Part shown: positions 1 through 63,700 of the stretch, piece after piece
Layout: each line of letters begins with the position of its first letter
How positions within the stretch are numbered: the first letter of the stretch is position 1
DNA from: Dictyostelium discoideum
Lineage: Eukaryota
Direction: 5' to 3'
NCBI GenBank assembly: GCA_000004695.1
Contig: CM000155.2
Coordinates: 800,001 to 864,000 of the forward strand
DNA: 64,000 nt
Notes under the pieces: generated by a model
Seen by the model: the letters and a program-made list of their open reading frames with translations, nothing else
Database searches by the model: none
Told to the model about the DNA's origin: nothing
Position numbers and translations under genes: made by a program

Positions 1-3000
1 ATAATGGTACCTCTTATGATCCAGTTCAAGTGGTAAGTTCATTATGTTCCTTTGAATCCATTCAAATCGATAAACCTGATAAATTTGGTAGATCACCTTT
101 ATTCTATGCTTGTCAACATGGTAGTACCGTTTCTGCTCTCCTCTTAATTCAAAGAAAAGCTGATATTAATCGTGTTGATGAAGATGGTAATACACCTTTG
201 GCTATCACTCTCTTATTTAAACACCCAGATTGTGCTATCAATGTAATTCAAAAAGGTGCAAATGTTAAAGGTACTTTAACTAAATTCAATTATAAAATTA
301 CTAAAACTGAAACTCCATGGAAAACTGAAACAACAACAACAACAACAACTCCAAATGGTGCCACCACCACCACCACTACTACTACCACTACCACTACCAC
401 TGCTAGTACTTCAACAACAGCATCAGCAAATATACTTCCTCAAGTTGCAGCTCCATTAAATAGAGGTAGAATTAGTAGAGCTCAACATTCAAATGCTGCC
501 ATTCAAGAACCTAAAATTCCACATTATAAACAACCAATGAAAGTCGAATATAAAGTTGAAAAGATTAATGTTTGTAAGGTTGGTTTATTCTATCATGTTG
601 TATCAAATAATTGGCAAGGTGTTGCCTATATTATGTTGGACTCTGGTTTAGATAATTTCAGTGCACTTCATGATGCATTCAAAGCTGATAAATATCAATT
701 GGCTCTAACTTTATTATCAAAATGTCGTTCAGCTGCTGAATTATCACCATTATCACCAGAATCAAAACAAAACCTTTTCCATTTCATTGGTATGTACCCA
801 TCATCTGTTGCCAATTGGAGTGCTCGTGTTCAACAAAAATTATTATCATCTGGTGTTTCACCAAATCTCACTGATTCCACTGGTAGAACTCCACTTCACT
901 ATGCAGCTGTCTCTGAAAATGTTCCATTCACTCAATTCTTATTGACTCAAAAATTAAACATTAATCAACAAGATAAGGAAGGTAATACACCATTATCATT
1001 GGCATTGATAAAGATTAAAACTCCAACTCCAATAACTAGTGATACTCAACAACAACAAAGCACTGAAGATATTATCAAGAATTTCGTTTTACCAGCAGAG
1101 TTCAAATTATTATTAACCAATTTACCAAATTTAGAATTGAAATTCAAATATGAAGAGAATGAAATCACTCCATTAATTTATGCTATCAATATTAAAAACA
1201 TTGGTTTAATTGGTACTTTATTGAATTCAAAAGCAAACATCAATACAGTCGATGCACTTGGTCAACCACCACTTTTCCATGCAGTTAAAACAAATAAAAT
1301 GGATATTGTCAACTTGATACTCTCAAAGAAACCAAATATGAATATTCAAGATACCGATAAGAAATCTGTTATTCATTATGTAGTTAATCCAACTGAATAT
1401 GGTTCATTTGAAAATGTTACCCTTTTGAATCTATTGGCTAAACAAGGTTCTAAAATCGATTTAGCAGATATCGCTGGTAAAACACCATTATACTATGCAT
1501 CATTACAAGATTCTGGTAAGATGAAAGACGCTTTAATTAAATTGGGTGCAAAGAAGATTCCTCAAGAAACTTTACCAACTAGAGAAGTTTCAACCATTTC
1601 CAATTGGTCAGAGCTTAATACAGTCAATTATGAACAAGATTATAATAAATACATTGAAACCAAGAAAGAATTAATGGCTGCAAGCAATAAACAATTGAAA
1701 CCACTCGTTGATCCAATCTCAAGAATGCAAGAGAATTCTGAAGTATATGTCGATTCAAATGGTTTAATCTTTGACATTCTTATGACTAAAGTCGATGCTA
1801 AACGTGGTAATTGGGGTGAGAATAATTTCTACAAAATGCAAATCATTTACAATCCTGGCTTGGATAGATATTTCTTATGGAATCGTTGGGGTAGAATTGG
1901 TGATGTTGGTCAATATCAAAAGACACCATTCAGTAAGGATGAAGCAGTCACTGAATTTTGTAAAGTTTTCAAAACCAAGAGTGGCAATGCTTTCAATCTC
2001 GATTCAATGTCCAATTTCCAAAAGATTGAAGGGCGTTATCATTTGGTACACATCGATAGAACTGATAAGACAAAGAAAGAGATCCTCCACCCATTCGTTC
2101 TCTCTCAATATCCAAAATCACAATTACCAAAAGAACTCTATGATGTTATGGCTCAATTCTGTAATGTTGAATCAATCTCTCATCAATTGAAAAATCTTAA
2201 AATCGATACTGATATTATGCCATTGGGTCGTATTAGTAAAGATCTCATTCAAAAAGCCATTACAGTATTGGGTAAACTTAGTGAAGCAGTTGAACAAATT
2301 CGTTTGATCGAAGAGCACGAAGCCAATAAAAGAGCATCCTCTTTTACTAATGCTACAACTGTTGGTAGTGGTGTTAGTGGTAGTGGTGGTGATTCAACTT
2401 CTACCACTGATAAACCAGAGGAACCAAATTTCCCACCACTCAATGATGTCAAAGAATCCTTAATTAAACTTAGTAATGAATTCTATGAATTAATTCCTCA
2501 TTCAAACTTTTCCACCGAAAGAATGGTCATTTTGAAGAGTGCCAAAGAGATAACCGCCAAAACAACCCTCTTACAAAACTTGGATGAACTTGAGACCGTT
2601 TCAAAGATTTTGATTGCCGCTCACCAAAATACCACAATGCATCCATACGATTATTGTTTCAAAGCTCTTGGTGCCTCTTTGGAGAAATTGGATGCCAACT
2701 CTCCAGAATTTGGTATCCTTAAAAAGTACTCCGAGAATACCGGTTGCACAAAGAAGATTGTAAATATTTTCAAACTCCAAAGAAAAGGAGAGGTTGAAAG
2801 ATTCCAAGCTCATAAAAATCTCAAGAATCATTTCCTACTATGGCATGGTAGTTTAACAACAAACTATCTCTCCATTTTATCTCAAGGCTTAAAGATTGCT
2901 CCACCAGAGGCTCCAGTCACTGGTTATATGTTTGGTAAAGGTATTTATTTCTCTGATATGTTTAGAAAATCTATAAACTATTGCGGTAGTTGGGATAGTT

Positions 3001-3296
3001 CTTCAGCAAATAGTTTCCTCTTACTCTCAGAGGTAGCTTTGGGTACAATGAAAGAATTTAAAAGCGCTCACTATATGGAATCCCCTGAAACTGGTACAAA
3101 TAGTACTAAAGGTGTAGGTAAAACTGGTCCAAACTTTGACGATAGTATCATTTTAAATAATGGTGTTGCAATTCCTCTCTCTCCTCCAGAACAAGTTAAA
3201 GGTGATACTTCCGATTATCACTTGGAAATGAATGAATATATTGTTTATGACGTTTCTCAAATTAGAATGAGATATTTAGTTGAAGTTTCAAATTAA
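1..3296 (+). CDS. Poly(ADP-ribose) polymerase with N-terminal ankyrin repeats, WGR, PARP regulatory (helical) and catalytic domains. The 5' end is outside the window; the frame is open from base 1.
   Basis: The 1088-aa ORF is open to the window edge. It has ankyrin repeats (GRSPLFYACQHGSTVSALLLIQRKADIN; GRTPLHYAAVSENV; GKTPLYYAS). It has a WGR motif (WNRWGRIGDVGQ). The PARP H-Y-E catalytic triad context is present (LLWHGSLTTNYLSILSQGLKIAP ... GKGIYFSDMFRKS ... YHLEMNEYIVYD). Stop TAA at 3294-3296. Confidence 0.85.
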   Translation, partial: NGTSYDPVQVVSSLCSFESIQIDKPDKFGRSPLFYACQHGSTVSALLLIQRKADINRVDEDGNTPLAITLLFKHPDCAINVIQKGANVKGTLTKFNYKITKTETPWKTETTTTTTTPNGATTTTTTTTTTTTTASTSTTASANILPQVAAPLNRGRISRAQHSNAAIQEPKIPHYKQPMKVEYKVEKINVCKVGLFYHVVSNNWQGVAYIMLDSGLDNFSALHDAFKADKYQLALTLLSKCRSAAELSPLSPESKQNLFHFIGMYPSSVANWSARVQQKLLSSGVSPNLTDSTGRTPLHYAAVSENVPFTQFLLTQKLNINQQDKEGNTPLSLALIKIKTPTPITSDTQQQQSTEDIIKNFVLPAEFKLLLTNLPNLELKFKYEENEITPLIYAINIKNIGLIGTLLNSKANINTVDALGQPPLFHAVKTNKMDIVNLILSKKPNMNIQDTDKKSVIHYVVNPTEYGSFENVTLLNLLAKQGSKIDLADIAGKTPLYYASLQDSGKMKDALIKLGAKKIPQETLPTREVSTISNWSELNTVNYEQDYNKYIETKKELMAASNKQLKPLVDPISRMQENSEVYVDSNGLIFDILMTKVDAKRGNWGENNFYKMQIIYNPGLDRYFLWNRWGRIGDVGQYQKTPFSKDEAVTEFCKVFKTKSGNAFNLDSMSNFQKIEGRYHLVHIDRTDKTKKEILHPFVLSQYPKSQLPKELYDVMAQFCNVESISHQLKNLKIDTDIMPLGRISKDLIQKAITVLGKLSEAVEQIRLIEEHEANKRASSFTNATTVGSGVSGSGGDSTSTTDKPEEPNFPPLNDVKESLIKLSNEFYELIPHSNFSTERMVILKSAKEITAKTTLLQNLDELETVSKILIAAHQNTTMHPYDYCFKALGASLEKLDANSPEFGILKKYSENTGCTKKIVNIFKLQRKGEVERFQAHKNLKNHFLLWHGSLTTNYLSILSQGLKIAPPEAPVTGYMFGKGIYFSDMFRKSINYCGSWDSSSANSFLLLSEVALGTMKEFKSAHYMESPETGTNSTKGVGKTGPNFDDSIILNNGVAIPLSPPEQVKGDTSDYHLEMNEYIVYDVSQIRMRYLVEVSN

Positions 3297-50605: not shown

Positions 50606-51622
50606 ATGACAACTACAACTACAACTACAACAAATACAAATACAACAAATTTAGATCCATTATTGCCATGGGTTGAAAAATATAGACCAATATTAATTAA
50701 AGATATAGTTGGTAATGAAGAAACAGTTAGTAGATTAGAGAGTATATCAAAGGATGGTAATTTACCAAATATTATAATTAGTGGACCACCAGGTACAGGT
50801 AAAACATCGAGTATATTATGTTTAGCAAGGGCATTGTTGGGGGCAAATTATAAAGAGGCAGTATATGAATTGAATGCATCCGATGATAGAACATTGGATG
50901 TTGTTAGAGATAAGATTAAATCATTTGCAATGAAAAAGGTGACATTGCCAGCTGGGAGACATAAAATCATTATATTGGACGAGGTGGATAGTATGACAAG
51001 CGGAGCGCAACAAGCGTTAAGAAGAATTATGGAGATATACAGTGGTACAACCCGTTTTGCATTCGCTTGTAACCAATCCACCAAAATCATTGAACCTATT
51101 CAATCAAGATGTGCTGTGCTTCGTTTCACACGTTTATCAGACTCACAAATTTTAACACGTCTTAGAGAAGTTGTACAAATTGAAAAAGTACCATATACCG
51201 ACGACGGTTTGGCTGCTATCATTTTCACAGCAGAGGGTGATATGCGTCAAGCTTTAAATAACTTACAAGCAACTCATTCTGGTTTTGGTTTAATCAATGC
51301 TGAAAATGTTACAAAAGTATGTGACCAACCACATCCACTCATCATTAAACAAATCATTGCATTATGTGCTAAATCCGATTTCAAAGAAGCTTATCCATTT
51401 TTAAAAAAACTTTGGGATGATGGTTATTCCTCAATCGATATCATCTCTGCCCTCTTTAGTATTACAAAATCTTCAAATAATATACCGGAATATCAAAAAT
51501 TAGAATTCTTAAAAGAAATTGGTTTTTGTAATTTACGTGCTACAACTGGTGTAAATACTTTAGTTCAATTAACTGGTTTACTTTCAAAACTTTGTTTAGT
51601 TTCAATTAAAATGAAAAATTAA
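50606..51622 (+). CDS. rfc2: Replication factor C small subunit (RFC2-type clamp-loader AAA+ ATPase)
   Basis: Reads PWVEKYRP ... [10 protein letters not shown] ... [28 protein letters not shown] ... [56 protein letters not shown]. Near-identical block order to human RFC2 (PWVEKYRP ... [25 protein letters not shown] ... [37 protein letters not shown] ... [14 protein letters not shown]). Confidence 0.9.
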
Positions 51623-52688: not shown

Positions 52689-53474
52689 ATGCCAATTCAC
52701 AACAAAGTCTTAAGTAACGACCATTTCCGTAAAGTAGGTTATTATATTATTATTTTATATAGGGTTACAGATTGAATCAACAAAACAGAAACGGATTAAA
52801 TAGGATTAATTATAGGATGATGAGATGTGAAGTAATTATTGATTTTGAAGATTACTAATTGAAATTTTAAATTATTATTTAATAATTAGCACTGGCAAAT
52901 GCGTGTTAGAACCTGGTTCAACCAACCAGCACGTAAGATCAGAAGAAGAAATAACAGAATCGAAAAAGCTGCTAAAGTATTCCCAAGACCAATTGCCACC
53001 TTAAAACCAGTTGTTCGTGGTTCAACCATCAGATACAACATGAAAGTTAGAGCTGGTCGTGGTTTCACCTTAGAGGAATTAAAGGCTGCTGGTTTAACTG
53101 CTCAATACGCCAGAACCATCGGTATTGCTGTTGATACTCGTCGTGTAAACAAAACCCAACAATCTTTAACCTTAAATACTCAACGTTTAAAGAACTACCA
53201 ATCTAAACTCGTTCTTTTCCCACGTAAAGTCAATGCACCAAAGAAGGGTGAAGCCACCAAGGAAGAAGTTGCTAAAGCTGTCCAAACCCTCAAACCATTC
53301 ACTGTTAAATCCGCCATCGCCGTTACTTGTGAACAAACCCCACGTAAACCAACTGAAGCTGAAAAGAAATTCTCTGCCTATGCCACCCTCAAAGCTGCTG
53401 ACTCCAAAGCCAAGACTGTTGGTATCAGAAGAAAGGCTGCTGAAATCAAAGCTGCCAAAGCTGCTGAAAAATAA
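52689..53474 (+). CDS. rpl13: 60S ribosomal protein L13 (eL13). Two exons: join(52689..52733,52890..53474).
   Basis: Exon 1 [15 protein letters not shown] then donor GTAGGT. Exon 2 [20 protein letters not shown] ... [22 protein letters not shown] ... [15 protein letters not shown]. Colinear with human RPL13 ([29 protein letters not shown] ... [17 protein letters not shown] ... LILFPRKPSAPKKGD). Confidence 0.9.
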
Positions 53475-55160: not shown

Positions 55161-55362
55161 ATGTCAAATAATACTTATAGAATTGAGTATGCCTCAACTG
55201 GTAGATCATCATGTAAACAGGCTAAATGTAAAAAACAAATAGAAAAAGGAGCTGTTAGAATTGGTGCAATTTTCCCATCTGAAAGATTTGAAACTGATGG
55301 TGTTGGTACAGATTGGTTTCATCCAAATTGTTTCTTTGAGGTATTTATTAATTATGGCAATA

Positions 55363-55403
<41 letters not shown>

Positions 55404-56874
55404 TCATTATTTTATTTTATTTTATTTAATTTTTTTTTTTCTTCGGAAATAGAAACAAAAAAAAGCAAGAAAAACAACCAAAAAAGTTGACGATATTGAT
55501 GATTTAATTGGATTTGATGATTTATCAAAAAGTGACCAAAAGAATATAAAGAGTAAAGTTGAAGAACAACATGAGTTTTTCCTCTCAAAGAATTCTAAAT
55601 CAAAACCAAAATCGAAATCTAAAAAAGATACACCAGTTAGCAAACCAAAAACATCATCATGGGTCGTAAATGAAAATGGTGATATAACAAATAGTGACGA
55701 TGAAGAAGATACACAATTTATATTAAAGGATAAAAAGAAATCAAATAATAATAATAAAAACAATAACAATAATAAAAATAATAAATTTGATGATGATGAT
55801 TTATTTAATAATAATAATAATAATGATAATGACCAAGATGATGAAATTATGAAACCAATTAAAAAACCAACAAGTACTACAACTACAACTACAACCACTA
55901 AAAAAACAAATAATAATAATAATAATAATAATAATAATTCAACTTTAGTAAAGAGTAAACCATTAAAATCAATATTAATACCAAATTGGTTAACAAGTTT
56001 AGAGAAAATTATTAAAGATGAACAACAACAATTATATGATGAAATTATTGGAGATAAAAGAAATTCAAAATGTTTACCATCAGAGAGTAATCAAATTTTC
56101 ACAAGTTTAAATTCAGTTGGGTCACCAAAGAATTGTAATGTTGTGATTGTTGGTAGTTCACCAGATACCAAGAGAACGACATCAAGTGGTTTTTCATATT
56201 GTGATAATAGTTCAGAGAGATGGAAATTACAATCGATTAAAACATCTCATAGAAATTTAATTAGATTAGCATTATTGGATTTAGGGTATATTACTAAAGA
56301 GGAAACCATCGATTCAATTCAAGAGGTGTTGAGAGAGATTGATCTTCCATCTGACTCACCAAAAGATTGGTTCAAATCAACTTCAAAACAAGGTGTGCTT
56401 TGGTTAAATTCAGTCTCTTTGACATCGATTGAGGGTGATGATGATTATCAGAGTGATAACTTCAAAAAACATGAAAAATATTGGAAACCAGTCATAGAGG
56501 AAATCATTAGATCTATCTTTAATTCAAAGATTGAGGATGATTCACCATCTGGTGTTGTCTTTGTGTTACTTGGTAAACAAAGTACTCATTTCAAACAAAC
56601 CGTTCAATTAATTCATTCAGAATATATGGGTGCTATTCCAATTGAATTCATTGAAGCTGCTTCACCAGTTTTAGAAACTTTCCTTAGTTCAAATTGTTTT
56701 AAAAAAATTAATAATTCTTTAGAGAAATTATCATTATCTCCAATTGATTGGTGGAAACCAAAAGAAGATGATGATGAAGAAGAAGATGAAGAGGAAGAAG
56801 AAGAGGTAGATGAGGAACAAGAAAAACAACAACAACAAAATGTAGAAATAAAAAATAAACAAAAAAATCAAAAC

Positions 56875-56908
<34 letters not shown>

Positions 56909-56994
56909 GTGATGATAATGATGAAAAAGTTGAAGAGAAATTAAAAAGTGATAACAATCGTACTATTAAATTACCACCAGGTGAGCAATTTATA

Positions 56995-57037
<43 letters not shown>

Positions 57038-57960
57038 GTGGTGGTGGTGGTGATGATGATGATGAATCACCACCAAATGATAAAGATATTCGAAATAGTG
57101 ATGATAATAATAATAATAATAATAATAATGATGATGGAAATGTTCCACCACAATGTAATTTAATTCAAGAGAATGGAACAAAGATTCAATTGAAATTAGG
57201 TCAAGAATTTACATTGGGTAGAACGATTTTAGATATTAGGGATAAATTAGTTAGTAGAAATCAAGCAATCGTAACAATGTTAAAAGATATTTCAACTGGT
57301 TCATATTTTGTTGAATTGATACCAAAGGGTCAAAATCCTGTTCATTTAGTATTGGGTGATAATGATTTCCAACCATTATCTCAAGAATCAAAATATAAAC
57401 TTTTCAATGGTGAAACCTTTTTATTATGTTCTCAAAAATATCCATTCACTATTGAAATATCAGGTGGTAGTAAAAAAGTTAATAATACTAATAATAAACA
57501 ACCAGCAATTTCATTCTCACCAAAGAGTAAAACAACTTCAAATTTATCATCACCATCACAATCATCACAATCATCATCAAATAGTTCAAATAAAAGACCA
57601 TTAAATGATGATGATTTTGAAGGTGAAGGTAATAAAAATCATTCTTCACCTGCTAAAAAAAAGATTGCAACAACACCAAGTAAAAATAATTCAGAGAAAC
57701 CAAAACCAAAACCAAAACCAAAGCAAAAGAAAAAGGATGATTTTATCGACGAAGATGATTATCAAGAAGAGGATGAAGATTCTGATGATGATTATGTACC
57801 TTCTCAAAATGATGATGACGATGATGATGAATATGGTTCAGATTTTAAACCATTTATTAAATCAAGAAGTCAAGATAAACCAAAATGTAAATATGGTTCA
57901 TCTTGTTACAGAACTAATCCTGATCATTTAAGAGAGTTTAGTCATCCAAATAAAAAATAA
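55161..57960 (+). CDS. Composite DNA-damage-response protein: N-terminal PARP-type zinc finger, divergent UDG-superfamily-like module, FHA-like domain, C-terminal PBZ (PAR-binding) zinc finger. Two exons: join(55161..55340,55453..57960), ~895 aa.
   Basis: Exon 1 YRIEYASTGRSSCKQAKCKKQIEKGAVRIGAIFPSERFETDGVGTDWFHPNCFFE is a zf-PARP (PARP1/Lig3 nick-sensor finger). Donor GTATTT, acceptor AAATAG, phase 0. Exon 2 continues KVDDIDDLIGFDDLSKSDQKNIKSKVEE (PARP1 finger-1 tail: EVDGFSELRWDDQQKVKK). Mid-region reads NVVIVGSSPD ... GVLWLNSVSLT ... VVFVLLGKQSTHF, a UDG-fold-like motif arrangement. FHA-like block reads LGQEFTLGRTILDIRDKLVSRNQAIV ... GQNPVHL ... NGETFLL. C-terminus KPKCKYGSSCYRTNPDHLREFSHP fits the PBZ consensus C-x-[FY]-G-x2-C-x-R-x-NP-x-H-x4-H. 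Confidence 0.75.
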
Positions 57961-58094: not shown

Positions 58095-58430
58095 TTAAAT
58101 TTGTAATATATTTTGAAAAAAAGATAGAATTATATGAACAATTGTTAAAACTAGACTACATAAAAAACTTTGATACCATTTTAGGGTTAGATTAGCACTA
58201 ACACATACTGCAGTTAATATAATTGATGATATTACACCATAAAATAATCCAATGGCAAAACCATATATTGTGGTTATAACTGGAAAAAAAGGTGAAAATT
58301 TGGTTTTTTTAATTGAAAAACTTGCTGATAATCCAGATAAAAAGTAAGCACTACTAATTAAAAATGTTACCCAGAATGTTATTGAAATAAATATATCAAA
58401 ATATGTATTACTATGTTCAAGATTAACCAT
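58095..58430 (-). CDS. Possible small 3-TM membrane protein (111 aa), unassigned
   Basis: ORF with three hydrophobic helices (ITFWVTFLISSAYFLSGL; VITTIYGFAIGLFYGVISSIILTAV; LCSLVLTIVHIILSFF). No homology recognised. Could be spurious. Confidence 0.3.
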   Translation of the reverse strand: MVNLEHSNTYFDIFISITFWVTFLISSAYFLSGLSASFSIKKTKFSPFFPVITTIYGFAIGLFYGVISSIILTAVCVSANLTLKWYQSFLCSLVLTIVHIILSFFQNILQI

Positions 58431-59157: not shown

Positions 59158-59228
59158 GCGTATGTGGTCTAGTGGTATGATGCATCCCTGCCACGGATGC
59201 GAACTGGGTTCGATTCCCAGCATACGCA
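59158..59228 (+). tRNA. tRNA-Gly (anticodon GCC)
   Basis: Acceptor stem is 7 bp (GCGTATG/CATACGC) plus discriminator A. A-box is TGGTCTAGTGG. Anticodon stem CATCC/GGATG with loop CTGCCAC. T-arm CTGGG-TTCGATT-CCCAG contains the B-box GGTTCGATTCC. CCA is not encoded. Confidence 0.9.
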
Positions 59229-59520: not shown

Positions 59521-60854
59521 ATGAATTCCTACGCAGACGCGGCTAAAATGGCCAACCCCTCCACCCATATGGACGAGGCATCGGAGAACTTCATTAAGGA
59601 ATTCTCCACAAAAACAGCAGAGATAAAGGAAACTTACCCCAAACTATCAATAGGCCTCAAAGACATCTCCAAATACTGCGAGACCATATTGAACATGACT
59701 GCGCTCTCAACCTACGAGAAGAACAACGGATTCTACCCAATTACACTCGAATTCCCCAAAATGGATCTCAAGGGGTTAGAAGAAATGAGAAAAACACTCT
59801 CAAACTACGATATCCCAATCGACAAGATATACATAGGCAAAGGAACTAGAAAAATGATCCACCTGATGATTAAAAAAGAACAATCTCTCCTAAATATCAT
59901 TAGAGATAGAAGCAAATTGGGAACCTTCATCACCTCCAGTAGAGACTTCCACGTTCTCACAGGAAGAGTAAGAATTCCCAGAGAAAAGGCAGGAATAGTG
60001 GACGCCCTCATCAAAACTGCCTTTGCAGAAGAAATACCCTATGCAATATACAATACTATATACTCCACCGACCACCTCATAGTATTCGGTCTAATAGAAT
60101 GCAAAATAGGCGATCAAATGAAATCTGGCCAACACATTACAGAAATCGCAAACTTTACCATCAGAACGGCCACCAAAACCTACTCCTCACAAAAGAAAAA
60201 CAAGAAAGTAGAGACAAACAACACGGAGGAACCATTACCATCAGAACGGCCACCAAAACCTACTCCTCACAAAAGAAAAATAAGAAAGTAGAGTCAAACA
60301 ACACGGAAGAACCATTAGAAGATGAGATGACAGATGATCCTCCCAACATCCAAAACAGGATAGCAATCAAATCCTCTCAACCAAAACCACAACAACAAAC
60401 AAACAACCCAGCAAACAATAAGTCTGATAAACAATCAACCCAAGAGAAAAAAGCCCAATCAAAAAAGTCCTCTCAACCTCTTCCCCCCAAAAACCAAGCA
60501 GAATCTCAATCTGTCAAACCCACCACAACCACTACCACAACATCCAACGCCATCCAAAAAGACAATGCCAACAAAACGAGCACTAACATCCATTCATCCT
60601 CGGAAAACAGAGAGAAGACACCAAACATCCCTCCATCACATAAACGCAAGAACGAGGAAATCCACTCAAACAACGAGGTCACCCAACTCTCACCAACAAT
60701 AAACAGAAGCAACCCTTACATCCCATCCACCCCTAAGACACCTGTCAAAAAAGAAAGGAAAGGAATCATTGAGAGCTTCATAGAGAGTATCTACCCTTCA
60801 CCATCCAAACCGCAGCTATACGACTCCCAAGAGGAGATCGATATCATCTCATAA
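59521..60854 (+). CDS. TRE3-like ORF1 (nucleic-acid-binding/Gag-like protein), frameshifted by an 80-bp tandem duplication (60158..60237 = 60238..60317)
   Basis: ORF 59521..60291 and ORF 60099..60854 overlap in different frames and share the duplicated peptide TIRTATKTYSSQKKNKKVE(T/S)NNTEEPL. Removing one 80-bp copy restores a single about 418-aa ORF. Confidence 0.7.
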
Positions 60855-63700
60855 TGGTAGTAATCAAAATCAACCAATGGAATGTCAGAGGTTGGGGCAC
60901 TGACACCTCCTTCAAAAACAAAACAGACTTTATCAAATCCCAATCCCCCCCAAACTCATTGGCACTAACCATAGTCAATGAACTCAACGCCGACGCAACA
61001 CAAGCACACCAGCTATTTCCTGGCTCCATCATTAGCGCAACCAACAGAGGCAACGGAATAGGAATACTAAACCACAACAACCAAAACATAAAACTCTCAC
61101 CAATATTCATAATAGAAGGTAGACTAATAATATCAGACATTCTAATAAAAGATACCACAACGAGAATCTTGGCCATATACGCCCCGGCCCAACCTGATAA
61201 AAGAAAAATACTAGCTTCAACACTAAACAAACACTTCAACAACCAATACCACAACCTAACGTCTAACCCTAAAAAAAACATCGACATCATAGCAGGCGAC
61301 TTCAATTGTTTAGACTTCAATGACAATCACACATCAAATGATGACCAAGGCAACTTGACAACACAATCCCCAGATGAGATGGCCACAGTAATCGAAGCCA
61401 TCAGAATTTCAAATAACCTAATGGATATGGACCAACTAAATAAAAGACCCACCTTCTCAAGAACGATACACAACACAAACAATAACCTCACAAGAATCTT
61501 GGAAAGGAGACTAGACAGAATATACCTTAACAATAGCTTAATCAACTACAGCCAATTATACTTAAGGAACCTAATCCCCCCAAAAATTAACGACATACCT
61601 CTATCAGATCACAACTTCCTATCAACCACTTTCACTCTACCCAACATACAGATGAACAAGCGCAGATGGAGATTAAAAAAATCCTCAATCCTCTCAAGCA
61701 TAATGCTTAAGAAAATAGACTTCCTACTTAACGATTATTCAAGGGAGCTGTCATCCAACCATAACTCTATTTCCTTCTCTCAACTCAACAGCTTACTGAA
61801 CAAAATAAAACAACTATACACCGAATTTCAAAAACAAAACGACTACAACAATAAGGCAAACATCAAAAATCTAATCTCCCTACTAGAGACAGAATTTAAA
61901 GACCAAGCCTTCGCAACCCTTTCAGCAATAAATGAATCTAAAAAAAGAGAAGAACAACTTAAACAAGAATTGAACAACTATTGCGAAGAAACCTCACTCA
62001 AGTACATCTCCGCGAGAATCAAGAAAAGACACAATGATTTCACCATCAACGCAGTAAAAGATGCACAAGGTAGAACAATTAACAAACAGGAATTGATCGA
62101 AGAAGAATACGTAAAATATTACTCAAATCTTTATGACTACAAAGAAGATGACCCACTATCTCATTACGAAATGTTGGAAAATTGGACAGTGACCAGGGAC
62201 TCAACATGGGACAACCTTGAAAATGAATTCACCTCACAAGAAATCCTAGAAGTAATAAAACAACTGAACCCACACAAATCTCCAGGTCCAGATGGAATTC
62301 CAAACTTATTCTACATAACACACAAAGAAAAACTAGCTCCAATACTGGCCTCAGCATTCAACGACACTCTAAGAAATCCTCATCTAATTAGCAAAAATTA
62401 CAAAGAAGGCCTCATTATCACGATACCTAAAAAGGGAGACCCCGAACTAATCAAAAACAGAAGACCAATTACACTGGCTAACTGTATATATAAAATCCAC
62501 TCAAAGCTAATAAACAATAGAATAATCCCAATACTAACGAAAGTGATCAACCACAATCAAAAAGGTTTCGTACCAGGCAGATTCATTATAGATAATATCA
62601 TATCAATGAACGAATTAATCAACTATTGTAATGATAAAAGAATTAACGGAATAATTACACTATATGATTTCGAAAAAGCTTTTGACTCGATCTCACACGG
62701 TTCAATACTCAGATCACTACAACACATCAACATTCCAACCAATATAATCAACCTGATAATGAATCTACTCACCAAATCTGAAGCAAGAATTGAAATTAAT
62801 GGTAGAACTACTATACCCTTTGAGATCAAAAGAGGAGTTAAACAAGGAGATCCACTATCACCCACCCTGTTCGTCCTTGTAATAGAGGCTTTAGCTAGAA
62901 AAATTTTACAAGATGACCGAATTACTGGCCTTCCTCTAAACAACAGCAACCACAGAGAGAAATTCCAAAGCTTTGCAGACGACTCGGCTTCAATGGTCCC
63001 AGACTCTCAACAACTTGAATTAGTACTACAACACTTCAATTCATTTTGCAAAGCCACCTCCTCAAAACTTAACATCGACAAATCTTCATCAATTCTTATA
63101 GGCAACCCAGACAATACCAACCAAAGAATTCCAATATCTACAAATCCAGAAAGATACTTGGGATACTTCTTCACAGGTAAAGGGATAACAAGAAAAATGC
63201 CAGAAATATTAAACACAATAAGATCATCCTTAGTACTATGGAAAACCACTGACTCAACAATCAAAACCAAAACCAACATCCTCAAAGCATTCGCACTCTC
63301 TAAATTAACCTACTATTCATATGTAGAGAACTTTAAGGAAGAGGAATTAAACCAAATCAATAAATTAGTCGAATGGTTTTTATCGGCACCAAACAACAAA
63401 AATGCTAGTGGATTTCAAGTTATTAATTTAATGAGAACCAAAAGAGCAAGATACCCACTAAAAGTAGGGGGCTGGAACATTTGGAATATAGAATTGAGAC
63501 AACTGGCGCAGAAACTTTGGATCATAAACCAGTTCATCCTAGCACTAGAAACCAAACAAACAAACTCATCTCATCACAAAAGCTGGGAATATCAGATCCA
63601 AAAAAACAAATTCACATCCAGATACCTAAAAGAAAACTTACGAATGGAACAAAATAAGAATAAAAAAAAGCAATCTTCAACAATAATCTCACATCCATAA
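60854..63700 (+). CDS. TRE3-like ORF2: apurinic/apyrimidinic endonuclease + reverse transcriptase
   Basis: 948-aa ORF. RT block reads ITLANCIYKIHSKLINNRI ... ITLYDFEKAFDSISHGSILRSL ... QGDPLSPTLFVLVIEALARKI ... QSFADDSASM. Confidence 0.8.
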   Translation: MVVIKINQWNVRGWGTDTSFKNKTDFIKSQSPPNSLALTIVNELNADATQAHQLFPGSIISATNRGNGIGILNHNNQNIKLSPIFIIEGRLIISDILIKDTTTRILAIYAPAQPDKRKILASTLNKHFNNQYHNLTSNPKKNIDIIAGDFNCLDFNDNHTSNDDQGNLTTQSPDEMATVIEAIRISNNLMDMDQLNKRPTFSRTIHNTNNNLTRILERRLDRIYLNNSLINYSQLYLRNLIPPKINDIPLSDHNFLSTTFTLPNIQMNKRRWRLKKSSILSSIMLKKIDFLLNDYSRELSSNHNSISFSQLNSLLNKIKQLYTEFQKQNDYNNKANIKNLISLLETEFKDQAFATLSAINESKKREEQLKQELNNYCEETSLKYISARIKKRHNDFTINAVKDAQGRTINKQELIEEEYVKYYSNLYDYKEDDPLSHYEMLENWTVTRDSTWDNLENEFTSQEILEVIKQLNPHKSPGPDGIPNLFYITHKEKLAPILASAFNDTLRNPHLISKNYKEGLIITIPKKGDPELIKNRRPITLANCIYKIHSKLINNRIIPILTKVINHNQKGFVPGRFIIDNIISMNELINYCNDKRINGIITLYDFEKAFDSISHGSILRSLQHINIPTNIINLIMNLLTKSEARIEINGRTTIPFEIKRGVKQGDPLSPTLFVLVIEALARKILQDDRITGLPLNNSNHREKFQSFADDSASMVPDSQQLELVLQHFNSFCKATSSKLNIDKSSSILIGNPDNTNQRIPISTNPERYLGYFFTGKGITRKMPEILNTIRSSLVLWKTTDSTIKTKTNILKAFALSKLTYYSYVENFKEEELNQINKLVEWFLSAPNNKNASGFQVINLMRTKRARYPLKVGGWNIWNIELRQLAQKLWIINQFILALETKQTNSSHHKSWEYQIQKNKFTSRYLKENLRMEQNKNKKKQSSTIISHP

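What the first reader, a model, noticed from the sequence alone, without database searches (positions are those of the whole stretch)
55161..57960. Composite zf-PARP + UDG-like + FHA + PBZ protein: a nick-sensor finger fused to a PAR-reader scaffold
A single spliced gene joins four modules that are normally on separate DNA-repair proteins. (i) Exon 1 is a PARP-type zinc finger (CKQAKCKK ... WFHPNCF), the DNA-break sensor of PARP1 and DNA ligase III. Its tail (KVDDIDDLIGFDDLSKSDQKNIKSKVEE) continues in exon 2 after a phase-0 GTATTT..AAATAG intron. (ii) A central region shows the spacing of uracil-DNA-glycosylase-superfamily motifs (VVIVGSSPD ... VLWLNSVSLT ... VVFVLLGKQ), but with the catalytic GQDPY-type loop replaced by GSSPD. 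(iii) An FHA-like phosphothreonine-binding block (LGRTILDIRDKLVSRNQAIV ... NPVHL ... NGETFLL) follows. (iv) The C-terminus (KPKCKYGSSCYRTNPDHLREFSHP) is a textbook PBZ poly(ADP-ribose)-binding zinc finger. FHA+PBZ is the APLF architecture. PBZ motifs are known to be unusually widespread in Dictyostelium repair proteins. I do not know of an APLF-like protein that also carries a PARP-type zinc finger and a UDG-fold module. If real, it would couple direct strand-break recognition, PAR reading and phospho-dependent recruitment, possibly with a non-catalytic glycosylase-fold DNA-binding unit, in one polypeptide. An ankyrin-PARP writer lies at the other end of the same window.
Basis: partly seen in the sequence, partly recalled or inferred. 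Interest (0 to 1): 0.8.

Follow-up and report, generated by a model that had tools for sequence, protein, structure and literature searches.

The report
Repair scaffold carrying a dead glycosylase

Summary

- **Gene model.** Exons 55161..55340 and 55453..57960 give 895 aa. Homology runs unbroken across the splice junction.
- **zf-PARP.** E=2e-23; closest to the DNA ligase III finger.
- **PBZ.** E=5e-13; a perfect match to the published consensus.
- **Catalytic residues.** The equivalents of human UNG D145, Y147 and H268 are Ser, Asp and Ser here. They are lost in all ten dictyostelid-type copies, while N204 and the stacking aromatic are kept. The domain is still conserved (42-58% identity, against 10-30% in the linkers).
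- **FHA.** It is of the APLF/aprataxin/PNKP type (orthologue profile E=4e-9; top Foldseek hit is the APLF-XRCC4 complex). The Arg/Ser/Arg phosphate-binding residues are invariant.
- **Evolution.** A Rhizamoeba homologue has the same zf-PARP/UNG/FHA order and still has the catalytic Asp and His. The fusion is therefore old and the catalytic loss came later.

The best reading is a PAR- and nick-recruited repair scaffold with a non-catalytic UNG-fold reader. It is not APL and not a strict APLF orthologue. Orthologues are already annotated, and the literature mentions a PBZ-bearing "Ung". Novelty is moderate and function is untested.

The parts
55161..55340 (+). Exon 1 (codons 1-60). It holds the start codon and the zinc-binding core of the PARP-type finger (C18, C23, H54, C57).
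   Evidence: The N-terminus MSNNTYRIEYA matches the orthologue N-termini.
55341..55452 (+). Intron, 112 nt, phase 0, GTATTT...AATAG, A/T-rich.
   Evidence: Homology to the Lig3 finger and to the orthologues runs unbroken across the junction. If the intron is left unspliced, the frame stops at 55490.
55453..57960 (+). Exon 2 (codons 61-895 plus the stop codon). It is one uninterrupted 2.5-kb reading frame in 23.5% G+C DNA.
55176..55566 (+). PARP-type zinc finger (residues 6-98; spans the intron). It is most similar to the DNA ligase III finger, including the C-terminal helix ARKTTKKVDDIDDLIGFDDL. The first two zinc ligands are spaced CX4C.
   Evidence: Pfam PF00645, E=2e-23. 1uw0 E=5.3e-18; PARP1 F1+F2 E=7e-16. 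R15, R33 and F43 align with PARP1 R18, R34 and F44 (alignment; residue roles from my own knowledge).
55963..56766 (+). UNG-like (family-1 uracil-DNA-glycosylase fold) domain, residues 231-498. It carries the extra helical insert typical of the Nitratifractor-type subfamily.
56149..56166 (+). Degenerate motif A, VGSSPD, in place of LGQDPY. S296 replaces the catalytic Asp (human UNG D145) and D298 replaces Tyr147.
   Evidence: This loop varies among the orthologues (SS, LS, QA, NG, QN, QS, PA, QQ).
56392..56409 (+). GVLWLN motif. It holds the retained base-recognition Asn (N379, equivalent to human UNG N204).
   Evidence: Invariant in alignment A1. Asn at this position in 245 of 254 family members.
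56656..56682 (+). Degenerate motif B, AASPVLETF, in place of (A)HPSPLS. S464 replaces the catalytic His (human UNG H268). The Leu-intercalation loop is shorter than in canonical UNG.
56767..56826 (+). Acidic run (DDDEEEDEEEEEEVDEEQEK) directly after the UNG-like domain. It is followed by a low-complexity linker.
   Evidence: An acidic run is present at this place in all orthologues.
57148..57468 (+). FHA domain of the APLF/aprataxin/PNKP subtype (residues 626-732). G649-R650, S661-R662 and N688 are the phosphate-binding loop residues.
   Evidence: Orthologue profile against APLF FHA E=3.9e-9, APTX 5.8e-9, PNKP 4.1e-6. FHA_2 matched by 10 of 10 orthologues. AF2 pLDDT 87.2. Foldseek top hits 5e50 APLF/XRCC4, 5w7w, 1yjm, 3kt9. 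G, R, S and R are invariant.
57727..57846 (+). Basic-then-acidic stretch with conserved aromatic residues (KKKDDFIDEDDYQEEDEDSDDDYVPS...DDDDDDEYGSDF). The conserved core is SD(D/E)DY(V/I)P.
   Evidence: Conserved in all orthologues. It contains a CK2-type site, SDDD. Its function is inferred only.
57877..57957 (+). [quoted passage not shown] Zinc ligands are C872, C878, H885 and H891. Y874, Y879 and R880 are at the ADP-ribose-contact positions.
   Evidence: Pfam PF10283, E=5.1e-13. APLF PBZ 2kuo/2kqb E=1.2e-8. It fits the published consensus [K/R]xxCx[F/Y]GxxCxbbxxxxHxxx[F/Y]xH.

Best explanation
The gene encodes a nuclear DNA-damage-response scaffold built from four reader modules and, most likely, no enzyme.

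**Shown here**
- A Lig3-like PARP-type zinc finger.
- A family-1 UNG fold whose catalytic Asp, specificity Tyr and catalytic His are all replaced. Its base-recognition Asn and stacking aromatic are kept, and the domain is under purifying selection.
- An APLF/APTX/PNKP-type FHA with an intact phosphate-binding triad.
- A consensus PBZ.

**Inferred mechanism**
1. The zinc finger binds nicks or gaps directly.
2. The PBZ binds poly(ADP-ribose) laid down at the break by the Dictyostelium ARTs.
3. The FHA docks onto CK2-phosphorylated S/T-D/E clusters of an XRCC1- or XRCC4-type partner. The protein thereby bridges a ligase complex to the lesion.
4. The dead UNG domain acts as a DNA, AP-site or flipped-base reader rather than a glycosylase.

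**Evolution**
The fusion of zf-PARP, UNG and FHA predates dictyostelids, because a Rhizamoeba homologue has it with the catalytic Asp and His intact. The ancestor was probably a break- or PAR-tethered active UNG, and the dictyostelid lineage converted it into a pseudo-enzyme.
For: Domain identities.

Catalytic residue mapping against human and E. coli UNG gives Q144D145P146Y147 -> S295 S296 P297 D298, F158 -> Y309, N204 -> N379 and H268 -> S464.

Family census:
- 143 of 199 homologues with both positions alignable keep the Asp/His pair.
- All ten dictyostelid-type copies lack both.
- Their motif-A loop is variable, as expected once catalysis is lost.
- The domain as a whole is 42-58% identical across dictyostelid groups, against 10-30% for the linkers.

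FHA: G649, R650, S661 and R662 are invariant, and the I(R/K)DK.VSR signature is shared with APLF and APTX.

Partners and context:
- D. discoideum has XRCC1 and Lig3 (review PMC8529158).
- PBZ-dependent recruitment is demonstrated for Dictyostelium Ku70 and APL (PMC3153639 and PMC5087659).
- Rhizamoeba saxonica P0254 reads zf-PARP + GGDPNP...DDHPESG + FHA.

The Y81G mutant of the closest solved relative (Nitratifractor UNG, 5x3h) was reported inactive. That rests on my memory of Li et al. 2017, FEBS J; the paper is not held.
Against: - No biochemical or genetic data exist for this protein.
- Loss of the Asp and His does not by itself prove inactivity. UDG families 2, 3 and 5 work with Asn or Ala at the Asp position, and family 2 lacks the His (established knowledge).
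- An Asp two residues after the stacking aromatic (D311, in '...YCD') is nearly invariant in the subfamily. It could in principle substitute.
- DNA binding by the dead domain is not shown. The Gly-Ser loop Ser is Lys here, and the Leu-intercalation loop is shortened.
- FHA partners are inferred from the human paralogues only.
- Transcript evidence for the intron could not be obtained with these tools.
Confidence: 0.6

Rival explanations
1. The UNG-like domain is still a working DNA glycosylase, perhaps with altered chemistry or a different substrate. The protein would then be a base-excision enzyme delivered to PAR or nick sites, as the literature label 'Ung' implies.
For: - The fold is intact and confidently modelled.
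- N379 (N204) and aromatic Y309 (F158) are kept.
- D311 is nearly invariant.
- There is strong purifying selection on the domain.
- The Rhizamoeba homologue keeps the Asp and His.
- UDG families 2, 3 and 5 are active without the family-1 Asp, and family 2 without the His (established knowledge).
- Gunn 2016 calls a Dictyostelium PBZ protein 'Ung'.
Against: - Three catalytic or specificity residues (D145, Y147, H268) are replaced at once, in every dictyostelid copy.
- The residues at the Asp position differ between orthologues (S, S, A, G, N, S, A, Q, A). That argues against a new conserved catalytic residue in that loop.
- In family-1 enzymes, single D-to-N or H-to-L/Q changes cost orders of magnitude in rate (established knowledge).
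Confidence: 0.2
2. The dead UNG fold no longer touches DNA. It serves as a protein-protein interaction or autoregulatory module, for example docking a partner in the way vaccinia D4 docks A20, or masking the neighbouring domains.
For: - The DNA-contact loops are altered: the Leu loop is shortened and the Gly-Ser loop Ser is Lys.
- The domain is flanked by long acidic runs.
Against: - The most conserved motif of the domain is the base-pocket and minor-groove element QGVLWLN(T)SLT, with the invariant Asn. There is little reason to keep it if the pocket is unused.
- D4 itself still binds DNA.
Confidence: 0.15
3. The composite is an artefact of gene modelling: two neighbouring genes, or an unspliced exon 1, wrongly joined.
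For: No transcript data were available. The exact 895-aa sequence is not in the protein collection searched.
Against: - Exon 2 alone is one ORF containing the UNG-like, FHA and PBZ domains.
- The zf-PARP Pfam model and the Lig3 alignment run across the splice junction without a gap.
- Orthologues from D. dimigraforme, D. purpureum, Tieghemostelium, Heterostelium and Cavenderia, and more distant homologues, have the same order of domains.
Confidence: 0.02

Closest known systems
Human APLF (aprataxin and PNK-like factor)
   Same: It combines an FHA of the same subtype, PBZ zinc finger(s) and an acidic, aromatic-studded region in a non-enzymatic, PAR-recruited repair scaffold. APLF is the best PDB match for both the FHA and the PBZ.
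   Different: - APLF has an N-terminal FHA, a Ku-binding motif, two tandem PBZs and a C-terminal acidic histone-chaperone domain.
- The window protein has an internal FHA, one PBZ at the extreme C-terminus, and the acidic region before the PBZ.
- It has no conserved Ku-binding motif. The one regex match, KSILIPNW, lies in the first helix of the UNG fold and its Pro is not conserved.
- It adds a zf-PARP and a UNG fold that APLF lacks.
Dictyostelium APL (Q54B72; Gunn et al. 2016, PMC5087659)
   Same: A Dictyostelium protein with an FHA of the APTX/APLF/PNKP type plus a PBZ. It is shown to bind PAR and to be enriched on chromatin after damage.
   Different: APL is a different gene: N-terminal FHA, central PBZ, C-terminal circularly permuted macrodomain, with a 1689-nt full-length coding construct. 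It has no zf-PARP and no UNG fold.
DNA ligase III / PARP1 zinc fingers (zf-PARP, PF00645)
   Same: CCHC finger. The best match is the Lig3 finger (E=5e-18). The Arg/Arg/Phe DNA-contact positions align.
   Different: The first two ligands are spaced CX4C instead of CX2C, in all amoebozoan copies. There is a single finger, and it is not attached to a ligase or a PARP catalytic domain.
Family-1 uracil-DNA glycosylase, Nitratifractor salsuginis-type subfamily (5x3g/5x3h)
   Same: Same fold with the same extra helical insert. GVL(W/L)LN, PS.RN and the C-terminal ...IDW motifs are shared. Free-standing relatives carry GQDPYP...HPAVE(T/S)F and are annotated as uracil-DNA glycosylase.
   Different: The catalytic Asp, the Tyr and the catalytic His are all replaced (S296, D298, S464). 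The domain is embedded in an 895-aa multidomain protein.
Vaccinia D4 (UDG used as a polymerase processivity subunit)
   Different: D4 keeps its catalytic residues and its activity. It is viral, and it acts in replication with A20 and E9.
XRCC1-type single-strand-break repair scaffolds
   Same: A non-enzymatic protein recruited by PAR, which assembles FHA-containing end-processing factors and a ligase at nicks.
   Different: XRCC1 reads PAR through a BRCT domain, and it is the phosphorylated target of FHA proteins rather than an FHA bearer. There is no sequence relationship.

Membership tests
zf-PARP (PF00645) | Profile score above Pfam's gathering threshold | tested here: met
   83.3 bits against 39.3, E=2e-23, profile positions 1-86 of 87.
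zf-PARP (PF00645) | CCHC zinc ligands | tested here: met
   C18, C23, H54 and C57 align with the Lig3 and PARP1 ligands. The first-pair spacing is CX4C, not CX2C, and this is conserved in orthologues.
zf-PARP (PF00645) | Binding to DNA nicks, gaps or ends | not testable with these tools
   Only the alignment of R15, R33 and F43 with PARP1 R18, R34 and F44 (residue roles from established knowledge).
PBZ / zf-CCHH (PF10283) | Profile score above threshold, and the consensus [K/R]xxCx[F/Y]GxxCxbbxxxxHxxx[F/Y]xH | tested here: met
   49.2 bits against 22.7. KPKCKYGSSCYRTNPDHLREFSH fits every position of the consensus quoted in PMC4030884.
PBZ / zf-CCHH (PF10283) | Poly(ADP-ribose) binding | not testable with these tools
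   Inferred from APLF, CHFR, Dictyostelium Ku70 and APL.
FHA, APLF/APTX/PNKP subtype (PF17913 FHA_2) | Pfam score above threshold for the window sequence on its own | tested here: not met
   FHA_2 17.3 bits against 23.1 (E=0.0047). FHA 13.1 bits against 20.7.
FHA, APLF/APTX/PNKP subtype (PF17913 FHA_2) | Significant profile similarity to solved FHA domains of this subtype | tested here: met
   Profile of 10 orthologues: APLF 3.9e-9, APTX 5.8e-9, PNKP 4.1e-6. Other FHAs score at least 0.1. All 10 members hit FHA_2.
FHA, APLF/APTX/PNKP subtype (PF17913 FHA_2) | FHA beta-sandwich fold | tested here: met
   AF2 pLDDT 87.2 with 11 strands. Foldseek top hits are APLF, PNKP and APTX FHA, probability 1.0, TM about 0.8.
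FHA, APLF/APTX/PNKP subtype (PF17913 FHA_2) | Phosphothreonine-binding residues (Gly-Arg loop, Ser-Arg loop, Asn loop) | tested here: met
   G649, R650, S661 and R662 are invariant in 10 of 10 orthologues. N688 is largely conserved.
UDG superfamily, family 1 (UNG) | Family-1 alpha/beta fold | tested here: met
UDG superfamily, family 1 (UNG) | Sequence-profile membership | tested here: inconclusive
   The window sequence alone is below Pfam's UDG threshold (14.5 bits against 24.3). The family profile hits UNG structures at 8.7e-30.
UDG superfamily, family 1 (UNG) | Motif A GQDPY with the catalytic Asp (human D145) and Tyr147 | tested here: not met
   GSSPD: Asp to Ser296 and Tyr to Asp298. The Asp is absent in all ten dictyostelid-type copies.
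UDG superfamily, family 1 (UNG) | Motif B HPSPLS with the catalytic His (human H268) and the Leu-intercalation loop | tested here: not met
   ASPVLETF: His to Ser464, and the loop is several residues shorter.
UDG superfamily, family 1 (UNG) | Uracil-recognition Asn (human N204) and stacking Phe158 | tested here: met
   N379 is invariant and Y309 is aromatic.
UDG superfamily, family 1 (UNG) | Uracil excision activity | not testable with these tools
   Needs an enzyme assay.
APLF orthologue | N-terminal FHA, Ku-binding motif, tandem PBZ and C-terminal acidic domain | tested here: not met
   One PBZ only. The FHA is internal. The only KBM-like match is inside the UNG fold and is not conserved.
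Dictyostelium APL | FHA-PBZ-macrodomain architecture (Q54B72) | tested here: not met
   No macrodomain hit in Pfam. The length and domain order differ from the description in PMC5087659.

The most novel reading that the evidence does not exclude
Dictyostelids turned an ancestral amoebozoan UNG into a catalytically dead lesion reader. That ancestor was already hard-wired to a nick sensor and an FHA (and, in dictyostelids, to a PAR reader). The result would be a cellular pseudo-UNG that recognises uracil, AP sites or flipped bases without cutting. It would couple them to PAR- and phospho-dependent assembly of a ligase complex. This protein would then be the functional APLF-like factor that Couto et al. 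2011 said had 'yet to be identified' in D. discoideum.
Probability: 0.3. Interest if true: 0.65.

Novelty: new variant of a known kind. Interest (0 to 1): 0.45.

Why it matters
Dictyostelium is the main non-animal model for ADP-ribosylation-dependent DNA repair. Its PBZ- and macrodomain-bearing proteins have been used as markers to discover new PARP-dependent pathways, such as Ku70 in end joining and APL in crosslink repair.

This gene is one of the few PBZ proteins with no published function. In one polypeptide it combines direct break sensing, PAR reading, phospho-dependent docking and a glycosylase fold stripped of its catalytic residues.

If the dead UNG domain still recognises lesions, two things follow. 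It would be a rare cellular example of a DNA glycosylase converted into a pure damage reader. It would also physically link base-excision intermediates to PAR signalling.

The idea is directly testable, because gene knock-outs and chromatin-enrichment assays are routine in this organism.

Tried and rejected
- **Exact look-up.** The 895-aa model is not in the collection.
- **Word-indexed search.** A search with the central domain alone found nothing. The dictyostelid proteins appear only in the exhaustive representative search.
- **Single-sequence searches.** Pfam gave only sub-threshold UDG and FHA hits, and the PDB search with the FHA region alone gave nothing useful. Orthologue profiles were needed.
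- **Is it APL?** I considered that the gene is APL (Gunn 2016). I rejected this because the architecture differs and there is no macrodomain.
- **Is it a true APLF orthologue?** Rejected on architecture.
- **Ku-binding motif.** The single regex match, KSILIPNW, is part of the first UNG helix, and its Pro is not conserved.
- **Other motifs.** No PIP box, no second PBZ and no MIU-like motif were found in the window protein.
- **Papers not held.** Ahel et al. 2008 (Nature 451:81) and Li et al. 2017 (FEBS J 284:4017) could not be read. The identification of this gene with the literature's 'Ung', and the statement that Nitratifractor UNG Y81G is inactive, rest on inference and on my memory.
- **AFDB fold library.** It was not available, so the UniProt accession of the D. 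discoideum entry could not be recovered.
- **Literature search.** Searches for a Dictyostelium uracil-DNA glycosylase (uglA) gave nothing relevant.
- **Linkage with the ankyrin-PARP.** No evidence was found for functional linkage with the gene 52 kb away.
Full report
**Observation**

The window is 23.5% G+C, with poly-Asn and poly-Thr runs typical of Dictyostelium.
- Exon 1 (55161..55340) and exon 2 (55453..57960) are both in phase 0. They are joined across a 112-nt GTATTT...AATAG intron.
- Joining them gives an 895-residue protein.
- Left unspliced, exon 1 runs into a stop at 55490.
- Exon 2 alone is an uninterrupted 2.5-kb reading frame.

The junction NCFFE|KQKKARKTTKKVDD sits in the middle of a gap-free alignment to the human DNA ligase III zinc finger (1uw0: CMFEKLERARATTKKIEDL; E=5.3e-18). 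It also sits inside the Pfam zf-PARP match, which covers profile positions 1-86 of 87. Orthologues from other dictyostelids read straight through the same junction. The gene model is therefore well supported by homology. No transcript data could be consulted.

**The two zinc fingers**

On the full-length protein Pfam reports two families:
- zf-PARP at residues 9-95: 83.3 bits against a cutoff of 39.3, E=2e-23.
- PBZ (zf-CCHH) at residues 869-894: 49.2 bits against 22.7, E=5.1e-13.

The zf-PARP is closer to the Lig3 finger (67.7 bits) than to either PARP1 finger (34 and 25 bits).
- Its zinc ligands are C18, C23, H54 and C57.
- The first pair is spaced CX4C rather than CX2C. This is shared by all amoebozoan copies.
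- R15, R33 and F43 align with PARP1 R18, R34 and F44. Those are the backbone-grip and base-stacking residues (residue roles from established knowledge).

The PBZ, KPKCKYGSSCYRTNPDHLREFSH, fits every position of the consensus quoted in PMC4030884. It matches the APLF PBZ structures at E=1.2e-8.

**The central domain is a family-1 UNG fold**

The single sequence gives only a sub-threshold Pfam UDG hit (14.5 bits against 24.3), and the word-indexed protein search found nothing. The exhaustive search of 1.84 billion representatives found 148 homologues, 9 of them at E<=1e-30.

Evidence from a 31-sequence alignment of the family (A1):
- It hits UNG crystal structures at E=8.7e-30. The best hit is Nitratifractor salsuginis UNG (5x3g), followed by Bacillus, Deinococcus, E. 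coli and human UNG.
- With it, AlphaFold2 gives pLDDT 94.5 and pTM 0.92.
- Foldseek ranks 5x3h/5x3g first.

The domain shares the extra helical insert of the Nitratifractor-type subfamily (alignment). Free-standing members of this subfamily carry GQDPYP...QGVLWLNTxLTF...HPAVE(T/S)F. They occur in metamonads (Kipferlia, Monocercomonoides, Blattamonas) and in many bacteria, and several are annotated as uracil-DNA glycosylase.

**The catalytic residues are gone**

I aligned the family with human and E. coli UNG and took a census over 254 sequences. Numbering follows the human UNG structural literature, and residue roles are from established knowledge.

| Human UNG | Role | Window protein |
|---|---|---|
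| Q144 | motif A loop | S295 |
| D145 | catalytic Asp | S296 |
| P146 | motif A loop | P297 |
| Y147 | thymine exclusion | D298 |
| F158 | base stacking | Y309 |
| N204 | uracil recognition | N379 |
| H268 | catalytic His | S464 |

- Of 199 homologues in which both catalytic positions align, 143 have the Asp/His pair.
- All ten dictyostelid-type copies lack both.
- The residues at the Gln-Asp positions differ from species to species (SS, LS, QA, NG, QN, QS, PA, QQ, QA). That is what one expects of a loop released from catalytic constraint.
- N204 is kept in 245 of 254 family members.
- The QGVLWLN motif is invariant in dictyostelids.

The domain as a whole is 42-58% identical between dictyostelid groups. 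That is similar to the zf-PARP (55-74%) and well above the linkers (10-30%). The fold is therefore maintained by selection, although the classical chemistry has been lost.

**The FHA domain**

The single sequence is below the Pfam thresholds (FHA_2 E=0.0047; FHA E=0.13).
- A profile of ten orthologues (A2) hits the FHA domains of APLF (3.9e-9), aprataxin (5.8e-9) and PNKP (4.1e-6). No other FHA scores better than 0.1.
- All ten members hit FHA_2.
- The AF2 model is an 11-strand sandwich with pLDDT 87.2.
- Its best Foldseek matches are the APLF-XRCC4 complex (5e50), APLF FHA with and without XRCC1 phosphopeptide, PNKP with XRCC4 or XRCC1 peptides, and aprataxin.
- G649-R650 and S661-R662 are invariant.
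- The I(R/K)DK.VSR signature matches APLF (ITDKRVSR) and APTX (ITDKKCSR).

This is the FHA subtype that reads CK2-phosphorylated clusters in XRCC1 and XRCC4 (established knowledge). D. discoideum has XRCC1 and Lig3 (PMC8529158).

**Conservation and evolution**

Proteins with the same architecture exist in several species:
- Dictyostelium dimigraforme: 866 aa, 92% identity in the UNG-like domain.
- D. purpureum: F0ZGB9, 'PARP-type domain-containing protein'.
- Tieghemostelium lacteum, Heterostelium album and Cavenderia fasciculata: all 'SMAD/FHA domain-containing protein'.

A more distant environmental protein (P0148) has all four modules, also with a dead motif A. A Rhizamoeba saxonica transcript (P0254) encodes zf-PARP + UNG-like + FHA. 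Its motif A reads GGDPNP and its motif B reads DDHPESG, so the catalytic Asp and His are retained. The fusion therefore predates dictyostelids, and the catalytic loss is secondary.

Outside the domains there are conserved short elements: SSW(V/F)V(D/N) and F(D/E)DDD(L/I)F in linker 1, and a basic-then-acidic stretch with the core SD(D/E)DY(V/I)P just before the PBZ.

**Mechanism**

What is shown is the domain set, the state of the residues and the conservation. The rest is inferred.

The most economical model is a recruited scaffold:
1. The finger senses nicks or gaps.
2. The PBZ reads PAR produced by the Dictyostelium ARTs. The same mechanism has been demonstrated for Ku70 and APL (PMC3153639 and PMC5087659).
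3. The FHA docks a phosphorylated XRCC1- or XRCC4-type partner.
4. The dead UNG fold reads DNA lesions or flipped bases without cutting.

I give this model 0.6.

The main rival, at 0.2, is that the domain still cuts.
- UDG families 2, 3 and 5 manage without the family-1 Asp, and family 2 also without the His.
- The nearly invariant D311 lies close to the stacking aromatic.

A purely protein-binding role, with vaccinia D4 as precedent, gets 0.15. A gene-model artefact gets 0.02.

**Comparison with what is known**

- It is not APL, which is FHA-PBZ-macro.
- It is not an APLF orthologue by architecture. APLF is nevertheless the closest solved relative of two of its modules.
- Couto et al. 2011 noted that APLF had not been found in D. 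discoideum.
- The review literature counts seven PBZ proteins in D. discoideum.
- Gunn et al. name 'Ku70 and Ung' among them. This gene is very probably that 'Ung'. This is my inference, because Ahel 2008 could not be read.
- I found no paper that describes its full architecture, the loss of the catalytic residues, or any experiment on it.

**Verdict**

- The protein is a new variant of a known kind: PAR-dependent repair scaffolds built from known modules.
- It is already catalogued in databases and has been mentioned once in the literature, but it is functionally unexplored.
- The pseudo-UNG aspect and the ancient amoebozoan fusion are the parts a specialist would find worth an experiment.
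- Interest: 0.45.

Noticed in passing
window 30..3296 (+): A long ORF running in from the window edge encodes ankyrin repeats + WGR + PARP regulatory + PARP catalytic domains (PARP E=1e-59). It matches the 'Clade 1 PARP with ankyrin repeats' described for D. discoideum ADPRT3 in PMC4245714. It lies about 52 kb from the finding with many genes between, so there is no evidence of linkage.
   Followed up: partly
window 59158..59228 (+) and 59521..63700 (+): A tRNA-Gly(GCC) gene is followed about 300 bp downstream by overlapping ORFs. The largest (60854..63700, 948 aa) has a reverse-transcriptase domain (RVT_1, E=5e-34). This looks like a tRNA-gene-targeted non-LTR retrotransposon of the Dictyostelium TRE type.
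   Followed up: partly
window 50606..51622 (+), 52899..53474 (+), 58095..58430 (-): The immediate neighbours are ordinary housekeeping genes: a replication factor C small subunit (Rep_fac_C + AAA), ribosomal protein L13e, and a TMEM170-family membrane protein on the opposite strand just 3' of the finding.
   Followed up: partly
orthologues P0004, P0005, P0006, P0009 (between the FHA and the basic/acidic tail): Orthologues outside the D. discoideum/purpureum group carry a conserved DDEE(F/Y/L)A(K/R)(K/N)LQ(D/E)EE motif. It resembles a ubiquitin-binding MIU/UIM-type helix. It is absent from the window protein (no A..LQ.[DE][DE] match).
   Followed up: partly
homologues P0021, P0024, P0033, P0034, P0037, P0045, P0049, P0058, P0063 and others: A separate clade of the same UNG-like subfamily has a paired Asp-to-Asn and His-to-Asn change (GQNPYP ... 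NPAAQGD). It occurs in long multidomain proteins; P0024, for example, is 1051 aa. P0017 and P0023 are UNG-like domains fused to protein kinases. So there are several independent non-canonical or fused UNG-fold lineages in protists.
   Followed up: no
window protein residues 128-145 and 168-178 (55654..55707 and 55774..55806): Two short linker motifs are conserved among dictyostelid orthologues despite low-complexity surroundings. SSW(V/F)V(D/N) is followed by an acidic run, and F(D/E)DDD(L/I)F. They are possible docking motifs of unknown partner.
   Followed up: no
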